Source of the DNA: Escherichia coli
Lineage (GTDB): Bacteria > Pseudomonadota > Gammaproteobacteria > Enterobacterales > Enterobacteriaceae
Assembly (NCBI RefSeq): GCF_003334335.1
Contig: NZ_QOWQ01000093.1
Strand: one strand, 5' to 3'
Length of the DNA: 2,204 nucleotides
The number at the start of each line of letters is the position of its first letter. Position 1 is the first letter of the stretch. The position numbers and the translations under genes are program-made. Below are positions 172 through 2,204 of the stretch, in pieces. The notes under the pieces were generated by a model. The model had not been told where the DNA came from. It ran no database searches and saw only the letters and a program-made list of their open reading frames with translations.

Positions 172-867
172 TCATGCTGCGGTAGCTCTCCATGCAGCAA
201 GCAGACCAGCAATCCACTCAACACCTTTTGGGGTGAATTTAACCTGCGTAAAAGCATGACCATTGCCCGCCTCGCCCGTTTTCACGCTAAACCGCCCCGC
301 ATCCAGGTGATGCGAGTAAGGCGTCATTTTTCCAGCGAGGCGATACATTATTCCGTTCTCCAACAAAAACAGCCGGAAATCGGTTTCTTTGATACCGAGT
401 AACTTAGCAACTTCCCGGAATCCCATCAGACCAGATGCTTCAACATAGTTATCAACAAATTCAGCCTTCGGCGCTGCTATTGCCAGTTGATTTTCCAGCA
501 CTGCTTTCTGTTCAGCCAGTTTTGCCGCAAATCGCAACGCCTCAGGTAAAGTCCGGGGGATCTGAATACCATGCATCGCTTTGAGTCTTGCCAGCACAGA
601 ACGACGAACGGCCTTTGACTCCCTCATGCCAACGAGCATCATCTGGTCAAAATCCAGATCATAGTATGCCGTTCTTGTCTGGTTATTGTTTAACCGGAAT
701 TTTTTTCCGGTTCCATCAAGCTCTAGCTCATCCTCAATTTTTGCAAGAAACTTACGCGGTTCATGAGGGACTTCTCCGGCTTCTGCCCGGGCTGGATTAA
801 TAATGTTATTCAGAAAATCCAGACTACTCATGGATATTTCATGATCGACAGAAATCATCTCTTTCAT
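172..867 (-). CDS. Phage regulatory protein / antirepressor, Rha-like N-terminal domain plus KilA-C (ANT) C-terminal domain, 231 aa
   Basis: Complete ORF in the supplied track. Shine-Dalgarno AAGGA sits 7 nt upstream of ATG 867-865 (minus strand reads AAAAGGAATCAACC-ATG). The C-terminal half (LPEALRFAAKLAEQ...APKAEFVDNYVEASGLMGFREVAKLLGIKETDFRLFLLENGIMYR...GRFSVKTGEAGNGHAFTQVKFTPKGVEWIAGLL) matches my recollection of the KilA-C/ANT antirepressor domain. The N-terminal half (KFLAKIEDELE...YYDLDFDQMMLVGMRESKAVRRSVLARLKAM) resembles the Rha-family N-terminal domain. Both assignments are from memory, not a search. Confidence 0.85.
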   Translation of the reverse strand: MKEMISVDHEISMSSLDFLNNIINPARAEAGEVPHEPRKFLAKIEDELELDGTGKKFRLNNNQTRTAYYDLDFDQMMLVGMRESKAVRRSVLARLKAMHGIQIPRTLPEALRFAAKLAEQKAVLENQLAIAAPKAEFVDNYVEASGLMGFREVAKLLGIKETDFRLFLLENGIMYRLAGKMTPYSHHLDAGRFSVKTGEAGNGHAFTQVKFTPKGVEWIAGLLAAWRATAA

Positions 868-1013
868 GGTTGATTCCTTTTAGTGATGAACCCTGCGCAC
901 AGGAATAACCAGCCCAAAGAGGGTTAACCAGACCACTGCCGGTTATCCACCAGGGCTCATCCTGAAAGGTTCTTTGGTTTATTTACGCTTGTGCGAAGCG
1001 CAGAAATGACAAA

Positions 1014-1030
1014 GGCACCATTACGGTGCC
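1014..1030 (-). terminator. Small hairpin GGCACC-N5-GGTGCC; on the minus strand it is followed by TTTGTCATTTCT. Weak candidate terminator or RNA stability element downstream of the endolysin
   Basis: Seen directly: 6-bp perfect inverted repeat with a 5-nt loop, 110 nt downstream of the endolysin stop, with a T-rich but interrupted tail on the minus strand. The stem is short, so termination efficiency is doubtful. Confidence 0.25.
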
Positions 1031-1140
1031 TCTGCGTGAAATAATGTTCCTGACTTTATTCACTTACATTTTGCCAGCTCGCAGGATTTCGTGTTATCCG
1101 CCCGCGTTGGCCAACGTCATTTTTCAGCAAAATATTCTGC

Positions 1141-1674
1141 TTATCTGTCGATTCCCCAGCACGCCAGCGCGCTCTCCTGGTCTCGCCGGGATACCTGACC
1201 GTAACAGTTATTTGAGCGAATACGGCAGTCCCTGCCACCGTCCTTAATCCACCAGCGAATCGCTTCGCAGGCACCTTTTCGATCACCAGCATTAATTCGT
1301 CTGTAAAACGTCGACGGGAAACACTTACCGGGACCAATGTTGTACGGACAGAATGACGCGATCCCCGCTTTCTGGGGTTCGGTCAGCGGCACTCTGATGT
1401 TTTTCTCCACCCACGCCAGCGCTTTATCACGCTCAATGGCGTTAACCTGGTCGCATTTTTCCTTCGACAACTTCATGCCGGGGACGACAGGCTTACCATC
1501 CACCCGGGTGGCACCACGGCAGATGGTCCAGATACCTGCACCATCACGGTATGCCGTGGTGTGGTTACCTTCCTTTTCATCCAGAAACTGGTCGAGAATT
1601 TCAGGCGCAGAAGCCCCTGCGGCAATCAGCGCCAGAACGGCAGCCGACAGGCCGTATTTGATTTTTGCGTTCAT
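1141..1674 (-). CDS. SAR endolysin (phage-21 R-type lysozyme, T4-lysozyme-like muramidase), 177 aa
   Basis: Complete ORF. The N-terminus YGLSAAVLALIAAGASA is the Gly/Ala-rich weakly hydrophobic signal-anchor-release segment typical of SAR endolysins. The catalytic motif E-x8-D-x5-T is present at Glu35, Asp44 and Thr50 (EGNHTTAYRDGAGIWT), the same spacing as T4 lysozyme E11/D20/T26 and as I recall for phage 21 R. The whole protein closely resembles, from memory, the lysozymes of E. coli cryptic lambdoid prophages (RrrQ/RrrD type); this is not verified. Confidence 0.95.
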   Translation of the reverse strand: MNAKIKYGLSAAVLALIAAGASAPEILDQFLDEKEGNHTTAYRDGAGIWTICRGATRVDGKPVVPGMKLSKEKCDQVNAIERDKALAWVEKNIRVPLTEPQKAGIASFCPYNIGPGKCFPSTFYRRINAGDRKGACEAIRWWIKDGGRDCRIRSNNCYGQVSRRDQESALACWGIDR

Positions 1675-1731
1675 GGATATTTATCAGGATTTATCGGTTC
1701 CGAATCCCTGGATATGTTAAGCCTTCACCCC

Positions 1732-1750
1732 GCCAGTGGTGGGCACTGGC
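1732..1750. promoter_or_regulatory. Perfect 7-bp inverted repeat GCCAGTG-gtggg-CACTGGC in the intergenic region between the endolysin start and the + strand ORF; candidate operator or RNA hairpin
   Basis: Seen directly. Centred about 45 nt upstream of ATG 1786. No T-run on either side, so it is not a terminator. No convincing sigma-70 -35/-10 pair could be placed nearby by eye. Confidence 0.3.
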
Positions 1751-1785
1751 CAGGGTATGTCAATCTGATAAACACAGAGGTGACT

Positions 1786-2046
1786 ATGGATTATCCAAAT
1801 CTACCAAAACAAACTTTTGCTGATTTAATCGCACTCAGGCAAGCAGTCGTAGCTCTAATCAACGTGTTGCCGGATGAGGAAAAGGAATTAGTTAAAGCAA
1901 TTCTTAACAGAACTGCCGCCGATTTTTCATCATTCCCACTGACAGATGACCTTGCGGACCTTCCTGAATTAATTGCAGCGTCCGCCATTAAGCTTACTGA
2001 AGAGATTTACTCTCCTCAAAAGCCTTCACAAAATTCCTGCGAGTAA
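1786..2046 (+). CDS. Hypothetical small acidic protein, 86 aa (MDYPNLPKQTFADLIALRQAVVALINVLPDEEKELVKAILNRTAADFSSFPLTDDLADLPELIAASAIKLTEEIYSPQKPSQNSCE); moron-like gene on the strand opposite the lysis genes
   Basis: An internal ATG of the 161-aa + strand ORF in the track. Shine-Dalgarno GAGG at 1777-1780 lies 5 nt before ATG 1786 (AGAGGTGACT-ATG). Codon first positions are G-rich, consistent with real coding. The ORF is AT-rich: I counted about 109 G+C in 261 nt (about 42%), against roughly 50-63% in the endolysin stretches I counted. A strong intrinsic terminator follows 20 nt after the stop. The 5' extension of the track ORF (1561-1785) is antisense to the endolysin and lacks a ribosome-binding site, so the 1786 start is preferred. 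No family could be assigned from memory. Confidence 0.55.
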   Translation: MDYPNLPKQTFADLIALRQAVVALINVLPDEEKELVKAILNRTAADFSSFPLTDDLADLPELIAASAIKLTEEIYSPQKPSQNSCE

Positions 2047-2204
2047 CTTCAATGCAATAATCGTAAAACGCCGCGAACTGCTCATCGCGGCGTTTTTCTT
2101 CAGGCCGCTGAAGATGCTCTTTCAACCGTGAAGCGCAGCTTAGATGCGCCGCGCGATCAAGAATAGTTTCTTTCATTTCATCTGCTGCAAGCACCTCATT
2201 TTTT
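1994..2204 (-). CDS. Partial CDS, C-terminal part only (frame is open to the window end; true start lies beyond 2204). Hydrophilic, highly charged tail ...AADEMKETILDRAAHLSCASRLKEHLQRPEEKRRDEQFAAFYDYCIEVTRRNFVKAFEESKSLQ; function unknown
   Basis: The track start at 2194 is a GTG; codons 2195-2203 continue without a stop (K-N-E), so the gene probably starts outside the window. Codon first positions are strongly G-biased and codon usage is E. coli-like, which supports real coding. Its last 17 codons overlap the 3' end of the + strand ORF (1994-2046) and it reads through the terminator hairpin, which lowers confidence. It is not obviously a holin: no hydrophobic segment is visible. Confidence 0.45.
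   Translation of the reverse strand, partial: KNEVLAADEMKETILDRAAHLSCASRLKEHLQRPEEKRRDEQFAAFYDYCIEVTRRNFVKAFEESKSLQ
2065..2097 (+). terminator. Rho-independent terminator: 12-bp stem (AAAACGCCGCGA / TCGCGGCGTTTT, 8 GC-rich core pairs) with 8-nt loop ACTGCTCA, followed by TTTTTCTT
   Basis: Seen directly, 20 nt downstream of the stop of the + strand ORF. An A-run precedes the stem, so the minus-strand transcript also gets a short U-run (possibly bidirectional). It lies inside the reading frame of the minus-strand partial ORF 1994..2204. Confidence 0.6.

What the first reader, a model, noticed from the sequence alone, without database searches (positions are those of the whole stretch)
1700..2100. 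Moron-like cassette on the opposite strand, wedged immediately upstream of the endolysin
A compact unit of Shine-Dalgarno, 86-aa ORF and strong intrinsic terminator sits on the + strand between two minus-strand late genes. It has clearly lower GC (about 42%) than its neighbours. That is the classic signature of a phage moron, an independently transcribed accessory gene acquired horizontally; lambda bor is a precedent for an opposite-strand moron in the lysis region. The product is a small, strongly acidic, probably helical protein I cannot assign to a family. Morons in this class often encode lysogenic-conversion, superinfection-exclusion or anti-defence functions, so this is the best candidate here for something undescribed.
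Basis: partly seen in the sequence, partly recalled or inferred. Interest (0 to 1): 0.65.

Follow-up and report, generated by a model that had tools for sequence, protein, structure and literature searches.

The report
Opposite-strand accessory gene in lysis cassette
A real 86-residue gene of unknown function points against the lysis genes of a lambda-like E. coli phage, and it is one of at least six unrelated small genes that can occupy the same swap-prone slot just upstream of the endolysin.

Summary
Window 1786-2046 (+) is an 86-codon ORF with a GAGG ribosome-binding site. A G+C-rich hairpin and U-tract follow at 2065-2100. GC is 41.8%, the predicted pI 4.3, and the model has three helices.

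It is a real gene. Relatives at 41-49% identity exist in Salmonella prophages and metagenome contigs. Only the + frame is open in all of them, and synonymous changes dominate there.

The moron reading is supported on every point I could compute. The unit is absent from K-12 Qin and other relatives, and present in 294 of 5,426 complete E. coli genomes. In Salmonella prophages it sits in a different slot, between Rz and the small terminase gene.

Three things are new. The slot opens with a conserved promoter-like element, shared by at least six unrelated opposite-strand small ORFs. The terminator hairpin lies inside a convergent late-strand ORF. That ORF accompanied the gene wherever sequence extended past its stop, about 25 loci.

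Transcription and function are untested. The protein matches only PHROG 2572 (unknown function), and the GenBank "DUF1823" label is not supported. Verdict: a new member of a known kind, of moderate interest.

The parts
1675..1750 (+). Conserved 5' element at the head of the slot. Its invariant core is ATATTTATCAGGATTTATC (1677-1695).
   Evidence: It is shared by loci with different cargo and by cargo-less loci. The core is invariant between E. coli and Salmonella copies, while the ORF is only 41-49% identical. The core occurs in at least 120 IMG/VR contigs.
1690..1718 (+). Candidate sigma-70 promoter: -35-like TTTATC (1690-1695), a 17-nt spacer, -10-like TATGTT (1713-1718).
   Evidence: The hexamers are conserved while the spacer varies in the Salmonella and L014 copies. 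TATGTT is present in 63 of 69 cargo-bearing loci and 4 of 43 cargo-less loci. It matches only 7 of 12 consensus positions and the scanner did not call it. It is inferred, not shown.
1777..1782 (+). Shine-Dalgarno sequence GAGGTG, 5 nt before the ATG.
   Evidence: Read directly from the sequence. It is invariant in 8 E. coli alleles. Distant homologues have TAAGGA at the same place.
1786..2046 (+). Gene A: an 86-aa acidic protein predicted to form three helices (PHROG 2572).
   Evidence: Full-length PHROG match, E = 3.6e-50. Homologues at 41-49% identity exist. It is the only frame open in all five diverged copies. pN/pS is 0.45-0.57, Fisher p = 6e-4 to 2e-5, best of the six frames. Indels are in-frame only. 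AlphaFold2 models.
2065..2100 (+). Intrinsic-terminator-like hairpin (2065-2076 paired with 2085-2096) plus U-tract, 19 nt after the stop codon of A.
   Evidence: -20.5 kcal/mol. Eight core pairs are kept in all six diverged copies. Both double compensatory changes are in L017. The U-tract is better conserved on the + strand than on the minus strand.
1994..2204 (-). 3' part of the convergent late-strand ORF (211 aa in PhiR5_1). A YdfR/DUF1327 N-domain lies outside the window, followed by the 'B' helical module. The hairpin encodes KRRDEQFAAFY.
   Evidence: Annotated in PV340545. The B module occurs fused, or alone as 67-116 aa. Four of the 5 substitutions in 2047-2102 fall on minus-strand third codon positions.
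2102..2163 (+). Relic of the 3' half of a different slot cargo (C4, PHROG 18136), in the same frame as A but with no start codon.
   Evidence: It is homologous to the intact + strand ORF of L002 and L139.
2189..2204 (+). 5' arm of a second + strand terminator hairpin, cut off by the end of the window. The full hairpin is at L001 8189-8216, followed by U7.
   Evidence: Fold of L001 8150-8240: -22.6 kcal/mol, z = -2.7. The same hairpin follows the intact C4 ORF in L139.
1141..1674 (-). Endolysin R, the neighbour. Its start codon abuts the 5' element.
   Evidence: PHROG 7 endolysin, E = 5.6e-64. Annotated as lysozyme.

Best explanation
This is a genuine accessory-gene cassette (a moron) sitting in a recombination-prone slot of lambdoid lysis cassettes.

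Shown:
- The + strand ORF codes for a protein and is under purifying selection.
- The unit is present, absent or replaced between conserved neighbours.
- The same gene, with the same upstream element and the same hairpin, also lies between Rz and the small terminase gene in Salmonella prophages.
- The slot next to R holds at least six unrelated opposite-strand small ORFs behind one shared 5' element. Each has its own ribosome-binding site and its own hairpin plus T-run.

Inferred mechanism:
- Host RNA polymerase starts near 1725 from a weak promoter (TTTATC, 17 nt, TATGTT) and transcribes away from R, against the late operon.
- The GAGG site recruits ribosomes to the ATG at 1786.
- The hairpin and U-tract at 2065-2100 end the transcript. 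This keeps antisense transcription out of the YdfR-family and holin genes.
- During lytic growth, Q-modified polymerase on the other strand reads through the hairpin, which lies inside a translated ORF.
- The product is probably a soluble acidic three-helix protein that works by binding a partner rather than by catalysis. An accessory role is the most likely class: superinfection exclusion, defence or anti-defence. I put that last step at about 0.3, and nothing here tests it.
For: Coding:
- Homologues at 41-49% identity have the same length class, start context and stop-then-hairpin layout.
- Only frame +0 is free of stops in all copies.
- pS is 0.57-0.63 against pN 0.26-0.36, Fisher p = 6e-4 to 2e-5, stronger than in the other five frames.
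- Intact 86-aa forms sit on about 1,000 contigs each. Truncated forms sit on 1-4 contigs.

Mobility:
- Homology breaks at 1750/1751 and 2101/2102 against L002.
- The unit is absent from K-12 Qin and ML775.
- It is in 294 of 5,426 genomes.
- It occupies a different slot, next to a different endolysin and different holins, in Salmonella.

Slot:
- Among 120 IMG/VR loci with the core element, 48 have no cargo. Forty-one carry C0 (90 aa), 11 carry C1 (104 aa), 11 carry A, 6 carry C4, 2 carry C5 (210 aa) and 1 carries C7.
- A, C0 and C1 are mutually unrelated by profile-profile comparison. The cargo types that match PHROGs fall in five different families; C5 matches none.

Promoter and terminator:
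- The conserved hexamers track cargo presence.
- The hairpin is conserved and shows compensatory changes that are non-synonymous in the minus frame.
- Other cargos have their own terminator-like hairpins.
Against: - There is no transcript or protein evidence of any kind, and I found no paper on the family.
- The candidate promoter matches only 7 of 12 consensus positions and was not called by the scanner.
- The association between TATGTT and cargo rests on few independent sequences: 35 distinct 92-mers.
- The hairpin lies inside a minus-strand ORF, so part of its conservation could be protein-coding constraint.
- Covariation comes from one sequence out of six, and 41 of 500 shuffles reach the observed score.
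- In most alleles the stem carries a mismatch.
- Selection is only moderate: dN/dS is 0.3-0.6 among close alleles.
- The structure model is of middling confidence, pLDDT 69.5.
- One 19-residue window has Kyte-Doolittle hydropathy 1.64, at the classical threshold. Membrane association is therefore not excluded.
- Pfam, NCBIfam, PADLOC, the PDB, BFVD and AFDB gave no functional lead.
Confidence: 0.72

Rival explanations
1. A and the convergent minus-strand module B form a functional two-gene unit. A, made from its own promoter, would restrain or partner the late-expressed B. This could happen through protein-protein binding or through the 53-59 nt overlap of the two RNAs at their 3' ends. The pair would act on late gene expression or lysis rather than on the host.
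For: B and the hairpin accompanied A in every locus (about 25) where sequence extended past the stop of A; two contig-truncated loci (L022 and one IMG/VR locus) could not be scored. The settings were fused to YdfR, stand-alone next to the holin, stand-alone after Rz in Salmonella, and 116 aa in L017. The pair moved together to a new slot. A is acidic (pI 4.3-4.7), while B ranges from pI 5.5 to 8.9. The B ORF is intact in all copies, and second codon positions change least.
Against: The overlap locks the two genes together physically, so co-occurrence is not independent evidence. B occurs without A in Stx phages, next to other cargo. The other five cargo types mostly lack B. B is not a small hydrophobic toxin. 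No interaction was tested.
Confidence: 0.13
2. A is a lytic-cycle factor that tunes lysis, for example by modulating the holin, the endolysin or the spanin. On this reading it is not expressed from the prophage.
For: Every copy seen lies within or at the edge of a lysis cassette, either upstream of R or just after Rz. The N-terminal helix is borderline hydrophobic.
Against: A is oriented against the late operon in every copy, so the late promoter cannot express it. It sits next to unrelated lysis proteins: a lysozyme-type R (PHROG 7) in E. coli, and a GH19 endolysin with other holin families in Salmonella. It is absent from most phages that have the same R. It is kept intact in defective Qin-like prophages.
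Confidence: 0.08
3. What matters is the transcription unit, not the protein. A conserved outward-facing promoter next to the R start would give antisense RNA or transcriptional interference. That would damp leaky late or lysis expression in lysogens. The ORFs would be interchangeable passengers.
For: The 5' element is more conserved than any cargo and is shared by unrelated cargos. The terminators confine the transcript.
Against: The cargo ORFs stay intact and A is under purifying selection. About 40% of loci with the core element have no cargo and mostly lack the -10-like hexamer. The predicted transcript runs away from R and overlaps only the tail of the upstream ORF.
Confidence: 0.05
4. There is no gene. 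On this reading the + ORF is a shadow of minus-strand coding sequence, meaning the extended DUF1327 ORF or the 65-codon antisense ORF at 1988-1791.
For: The 65-codon antisense ORF shares third codon positions with the + ORF, which is the frame that most often yields shadow ORFs. Among close alleles, third-position excess is modest, 11 of 21 sites. The minus-strand 211-aa ORF overlaps the last 53 nt.
Against: In diverged copies the antisense frames carry 2-11 stops, while + frame 0 carries none. The synonymous-versus-nonsynonymous asymmetry is strongest in + frame 0. The protein is conserved down to 41% identity, with in-frame 4- and 7-codon indels. The ribosome-binding site and start are conserved.
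Confidence: 0.02

Closest known systems
Lambda bor (from my own knowledge of the literature, Barondess and Beckwith; not re-read here)
   Same: It is a small gene on the strand opposite the late operon, at the edge of the lysis cassette, and is expressed independently of late transcription. In Salmonella prophages and in L014 the homologue of A sits between Rz and the terminase genes. To my knowledge that is the position bor occupies in lambda.
   Different: To my knowledge Bor is a lipoprotein with a signal peptide and a lipobox. A has no such features on inspection, is acidic and is probably cytoplasmic. There is no sequence or fold similarity. Expression of A in lysogens is unknown.
Morons as defined for HK97/HK022 and other lambdoid phages (from my own knowledge: Juhala, Hendrix and colleagues, 2000)
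   Same: A promoter-ORF-terminator unit lies between genes that are adjacent in related phages. Its base composition differs from its surroundings, and it shows presence/absence polymorphism.
   Different: The promoter is only a weak candidate. The terminator is embedded in a convergent coding sequence. The slot has one shared 5' element that serves several unrelated cargos.
Cargo hotspots of P2-like phages and P4-like satellites (from my own knowledge: Rousset and colleagues, 2022)
   Same: A fixed position flanked by conserved genes carries interchangeable, unrelated cargo across related elements.
   Different: The cargos here are single ORFs of 70-210 aa, and none of those tested (A and C5) matches PADLOC. 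The alternatives share an upstream element. No defence phenotype is known.
PHROG 2572 (unknown function), equivalent to RefSeq 'hypothetical protein' WP_001306174.1 and relatives
   Same: Full-length match, residues 1-86 against profile positions 1-86 of 86, E = 3.6e-50. The Salmonella homologue also matches, E = 6e-24.
   Different: Nothing. It is a member, but the family has no described function.
Anti-CRISPR AcrIIC4
   Same: Similar size (88-96 aa).
   Different: The profile match has E = 0.7 and the fold searches give nothing significant. There is no evidence of a relationship.

Membership tests
Moron (independently transcribed accessory cassette in a lambdoid phage) | Present in some close relatives and absent in others, between genes that are otherwise adjacent | tested here: met
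   ydfR abuts rrrQ in K-12 Qin. YdfR lies 50 nt from R in ML775. A replacement sits between identical flanks in L002. The cassette is in 294 of 5,426 genomes and 11 of 120 slots.
Moron (independently transcribed accessory cassette in a lambdoid phage) | Own promoter | tested here: inconclusive
   The scanner found no consensus promoter. The conserved TTTATC-17-TATGTT motif is linked to cargo presence, 63 of 69 against 4 of 43. It matches only 7 of 12 positions, and no start site has been mapped.
Moron (independently transcribed accessory cassette in a lambdoid phage) | Own factor-independent terminator | tested here: met
   A 12-bp hairpin plus U-tract lies 19 nt after the stop codon. It is conserved, with compensatory changes in one lineage. 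This is a prediction only, and the hairpin lies inside a convergent ORF.
Moron (independently transcribed accessory cassette in a lambdoid phage) | Base composition unlike the surrounding genes | tested here: met
   41.8% GC, against 55.1% for R, 54.2% for the holin and 51.5% for the 14-kb locus. It is only slightly below the adjacent DUF1327 ORF at 45.3%.
Moron (independently transcribed accessory cassette in a lambdoid phage) | Transcribed from the repressed prophage | not testable with these tools
   No expression data are held here, and no paper mentions the family.
PHROG 2572 | Significant full-length match to the family profile | tested here: met
   E = 3.6e-50, residues 1-86 against positions 1-86 of 86.
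Pfam DUF1823 (the label in GenBank PV340545) | Significant match to PF08853 | tested here: not met
   i-Evalue 0.042 over 30 residues. Only 1 of 12 family members reaches even E <= 0.1.
Bor/Lom-type surface conversion proteins | Signal peptide, lipobox or outer-membrane beta-barrel | tested here: not met
   No such N-terminus on inspection. The model is all-helical. There is no Pfam hit. No dedicated signal-peptide predictor was available.
Known anti-phage defence proteins (PADLOC) | Match to a PADLOC model | tested here: not met
   No family at E <= 1 for A or for the 210-aa alternative cargo.
Convergent toxin-antitoxin pair with overlapping 3' ends (type I-like) | A small hydrophobic toxin opposite a non-coding antisense RNA | tested here: not met
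   Both partners are hydrophilic, conserved protein-coding ORFs.

The most novel reading that the evidence does not exclude
The conserved element next to the endolysin start codon could be a resident expression dock: a shared promoter or operator, facing outward. Lambdoid phages would swap unrelated small genes in behind it. This is not the usual picture of each moron bringing its own promoter. On this reading, A and the convergent B module would form a two-gene unit whose terminator is written into B's coding sequence, and the dock's cargos would be a reservoir of small defence or anti-defence proteins.
Probability: 0.2. Interest if true: 0.65.

Novelty: new member of a known kind. Interest (0 to 1): 0.4.

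Why it matters
Small prophage genes that are transcribed on their own often carry superinfection exclusion, host-conversion or anti-defence functions. Very few of those in lysis cassettes have been studied.

This work turns a single ORF into a defined, testable system:
- a conserved 19-nt marker that locates the slot in any lambdoid genome;
- at least six cargo families of unknown function, five matching PHROGs (2572, 2411, 1853, 18136, 10490) and one with no match in any library searched;
- natural cargo-less controls;
- carriers that are easy to work with in the laboratory, namely CFT073, HS and the PhiR phage panel.

It also flags annotation problems: an unsupported DUF1823 label, intact fusion ORFs called pseudogenes, and near-identical loci annotated on opposite strands.

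If the gene turns out to be only a passenger, the result is an ordinary example of lambdoid mosaicism.

Tried and rejected
- **Shadow ORF.** I took this seriously because the antisense 65-codon ORF shares third codon positions with the + ORF. I rejected it after six-frame stop counts and a pN/pS comparison on diverged homologues.
- **One fast-evolving family in the slot.** I asked whether the alternative cargos were diverged relatives, because some share an LP-x-E motif. hhalign gave E = 0.069, 0.76 and 0.32, so I treat them as unrelated.
- **TPR-like relationship.** A matched fungal TPR/CHAT repeat proteins at E = 2e-8 and 5e-5. This is a repeat-amplified resemblance of one helix-turn-helix hairpin. 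Pfam sees no TPR in A.
- **Function from structure.** Foldseek against BFVD, the PDB and AFDB50 returned only self-hits or E > 0.8. A PDB sequence profile gave AcrIIC4 at E = 0.7.
- **Known RNA element.** Rfam had nothing relevant in the window or in two homologous loci; the only match at E <= 1 was a sub-threshold rnk leader hit in L017 (27 bits against a gathering score of 55, E = 0.17). The fold of the 5' leader is not significant, z = -1.4.
- **Response-regulator box.** I noticed a GATAAA-N4-GATAAA repeat in the core element and considered a PhoP- or CpxR-like box. The spacing or sequence does not fit well, and I have no test for it.
- **Literature.** Searches by accession, peptide, PHROG number and phage name found nothing on this gene. 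A Gifsy defence paper turned out to concern a different region.
Full report
**Context**

The window is the lysis region of a lambdoid E. coli phage, read on the strand opposite the late operon. It is 99.5% identical over its whole length to Escherichia phage PhiR5_1, PV340545. The gene order on the minus strand is as follows.
- Holin S.
- A 211-aa "DUF1327" ORF of the YdfR family, which enters the window at 2204 and ends at 1994.
- The + strand 86-aa ORF.
- Endolysin R (1674-1141).
- A KilAC antirepressor-like gene (867-172).
- Small ORFs and then Rz.

**Checking the observation**

- GAGG lies at 1777-1780, the ATG at 1786 and the stop at 2044-2046.
- A 12-bp hairpin (2065-2076 paired with 2085-2096) runs into UUUUUCUU. 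It folds at -20.5 kcal/mol with z = -2.3.
- The ORF has 41.8% GC, against 55.1% for R, 45.3% for the DUF1327 ORF and 47.3% for ant.
- The protein has pI 4.34 and net charge -7.5.
- AlphaFold2 gives three helices, with mean pLDDT 65 from the single sequence and 69.5 from a 12-sequence alignment.

There are caveats.
- The last 53 nt of the ORF and the whole hairpin lie inside the minus-strand ORF.
- The consensus scanner called neither this terminator nor any upstream promoter.
- Most alleles carry a G-to-A change at 2075 that weakens the stem to -14.6 kcal/mol.

**Is it a gene?**

ORF length alone does not decide this, because R has 93- and 127-codon shadow ORFs on its antisense strand. A 65-codon antisense ORF (1988-1791) also shares third codon positions with the + ORF.

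Among eight E. coli alleles at 92.5-100% identity, the + ORF is always intact. Indels fall only in the upstream non-coding stretch. Eleven of the 21 variable sites within 1786-1993 are third positions. That is suggestive but weak.

The decisive data came from an exhaustive HMMER search and a profile search. They found relatives at 41-49% identity (P0019, P0020, P0024, P0026, P0027).
- Across window, CFT073, L007, L014 and L017, only + frame 0 is free of stops. Every other frame has 2-11 stops.
- Nei-Gojobori counts give dN/dS of 0.30-0.38 for distant pairs.
- In a six-frame comparison, frame +0 has the strongest synonymous excess. pS is 0.57-0.63 against pN 0.26-0.36, with Fisher p from 6e-4 to 2e-5.
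- Length differences between homologues are in-frame blocks of 4 and 7 codons.
- Intact 86-aa forms are on about 1,000 contigs each, while truncated forms are on 1-4 contigs.

The upstream GTG extension to 161 aa, which some annotations use, is not conserved. One-nucleotide indels fall in it.

**Is it a mobile cassette?**

Yes. Several comparisons agree.
- Against strain S1-CAM-02-A (L002) the flanks match, at 1675-1750 and 2102-2204. Window 1751-2101 is replaced there by an unrelated 160-nt segment.
- In ML775 the 114-aa YdfR gene ends 50 nt from R. In K-12 Qin, ydfR overlaps the rrrQ start.
- Relative to ML775, PhiR5_1 carries about 552 extra nt at that point.
- The Qin-like prophages of CFT073 and HS carry the cassette.
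- It is present at 80% coverage or more in 294 of 5,426 complete E. coli genomes, and in 8 of 50,697 phage records.
- In Salmonella prophages and in metagenome contig L014 the homologue lies in a different slot, between Rz (DUF2514) and the small terminase gene (DUF1441). There it is next to a GH19 endolysin and unrelated holins, and still on the strand opposite the late genes.

**The slot and its 5' element**

The 76 nt between the R start codon and the cassette (1675-1750) are shared by loci with different fillers. A core, ATG(G/T)ATATTTATCAGG(A/C)TTTATC, is invariant even in the Salmonella and L014 copies, which have no R beside them.

I classified them by what follows the core:

| Filler on the + strand | Loci | PHROG |
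|---|---|---|
| None | 48 | - |
| C0, 90 aa | 41 | 2411 |
| C1, 104 aa | 11 | 1853 |
| A (this gene; one locus also holds a C4 relic) | 11 | 2572 |
| C4, 70-87 aa | 6 | 18136 |
| C5, 210 aa | 2 | none |
| C7, 105-116 aa | 1 | 10490 |

- A, C0 and C1 are unrelated by profile-profile comparison, with E = 0.069, 0.76 and 0.32.
- The cargos tested have no Pfam (A, C1, C5), NCBIfam (all) or PADLOC (A, C5) match.
- Each cargo inspected has a start codon, in most cases preceded by a Shine-Dalgarno-like sequence, and its own hairpin plus T-run after the stop.

Within the element, a -35-like TTTATC (1690-1695) and a -10-like TATGTT (1713-1718) are 17 nt apart. They stay put while the spacer changes in the Salmonella lineage. 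TATGTT is present in 63 of 69 cargo-bearing loci but only 4 of 43 cargo-less loci. These loci reduce to 35 distinct sequences, so this is a lead and not a statistic.

**The hairpin and the convergent ORF**

The hairpin encodes KRRDEQFAAFY in the minus-strand ORF. This "B" module (a coiled-coil-like stretch, then KRRDE..AA(F/L)Y, then a short tail) takes several forms:
- fused to the YdfR N-domain: 211 aa here, 183 aa in CFT073 and phage 2H10;
- alone, 67 aa, next to the holin in strain 155;
- alone, 73 aa, overlapping the Rz stop codon in Salmonella and L014;
- 116 aa in L017.

In 2047-2102, four of five substitutions fall on minus-strand third codon positions. So the minus frame is constrained there too.

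The structure itself is also conserved. Eight core pairs hold in all six diverged copies. L017 has two double compensatory changes (G-C to A-U and G-C to C-G), which change amino acids in the minus frame (R to H, A to V). The U-tract is kept on the + strand but not on the minus strand in the Salmonella copies.

I read the hairpin as the terminator of gene A, which the late ORF has to accommodate. B occurs without A in Stx phages. A was not seen without B wherever sequence extended past its stop, but the 53-59 nt overlap makes that linkage physical.

**Residual structure at the right edge of the window**

Window 2102-2163, in the same frame as A, is the 3' half of the C4 cargo, which is intact in L002 and L139. 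Its terminator, AGCACCUCA-N8-UGGGGUGCU-U7, is cut by the window end. PhiR5_1 therefore carries A next to a relic of an earlier occupant, with two + strand terminators in tandem. The 211-aa minus ORF reads antisense through both.

**Function**

No function could be assigned.
- The only significant family match is PHROG 2572, of unknown function.
- The GenBank label "DUF1823" rests on a Pfam hit at E = 0.042 in 1 of 12 family members.
- Fold searches returned only self-hits.
- The best PDB sequence hit is AcrIIC4 at E = 0.7.
- The matches to fungal TPR/CHAT proteins reflect one repeated helical hairpin.
- The N-terminal helix is borderline hydrophobic, with Kyte-Doolittle 1.64. It carries conserved D, R and Q residues.

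My best reading is a soluble partner-binding protein with an accessory role. That last step is inference from the class of element and not from any test here.

**Verdict**

The moron interpretation is supported on every computable criterion. Promoter activity, prophage expression and function remain open.

The gene family is already catalogued but uncharacterised. What is new is the anatomy of the slot:
- a shared 5' element;
- at least six alternative cargos;
- a terminator embedded in a convergent ORF;
- relocation of the A-B pair between slots.

I rate it a new member of a known kind, with interest 0.4.

Noticed in passing
window 868-1140 (minus strand): The 273-nt unannotated gap between the R stop and the ant start is 95-99% conserved in 162 phage records, mostly Stx phages. 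It folds strongly on the minus strand. There is a terminator-like hairpin at about 1011-1036 (z = -3.4) and a long stem-loop in 868-985 (-43 kcal/mol, z = -3.8). There is no Rfam match.
   Followed up: partly
window 2102-2204, continuing to L001 8216: This is a relic of the 3' half of another slot cargo (C4, PHROG 18136), in the same frame as the 86-aa ORF. Its own terminator hairpin plus U7 is cut by the window end.
   Followed up: yes
L004 1648-2600 versus L006 1651-2600: Two loci that are 99.6% identical are annotated on opposite strands. One has a 263-aa minus ORF (an extended DUF1327). The other has a 210-aa plus ORF with DUF1327 pseudogene fragments. At least one annotation contains a shadow ORF.
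   Followed up: partly
L003 2765-3316, L007 1767-2318, L012 1765-2316 (minus strand): PGAP labels the YdfR-family gene in CFT073, HS and related genomes as an incomplete pseudogene. The 183-codon fusion of the YdfR N-domain and the B module is nevertheless open from end to end.
   Followed up: yes
L001 7994-8629 and equivalents (minus strand): The minus-strand ORF after the YdfR N-domain stays open across whatever occupies the slot: 211, 183, 263 or 213 aa. It does so even when it reads antisense through + strand terminators and cargo. The reason is unknown.
   Followed up: no
window 1677-1695; L018 about 4875-4895: The invariant core holds a direct repeat, GATAAA-N4-GATAAA, on the minus strand. 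The core abuts the R start codon in E. coli phages, but it travels with gene A to a site without R in Salmonella prophages. It could be a promoter part, an operator or a recombination joint.
   Followed up: partly
neighbouring gene: YdfR family (L013 4055-4366 in K-12): A 2026 paper reports that K-12 YdfR binds the catalytic N-terminal half of RNase E through its first 72 residues, and that it co-purifies RNA (PMC13232886). This may bear on the role of the DUF1327 gene in lysis cassettes.
   Followed up: no
window 172-867 (minus strand): A KilAC/Ant-like antirepressor gene lies between R and Rz. It is present in some relatives and absent in others, for example CFT073 and K-12 Qin, where rrrQ is followed directly by rzpQ. 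It is another variable insert in the same lysis cassette.
   Followed up: no
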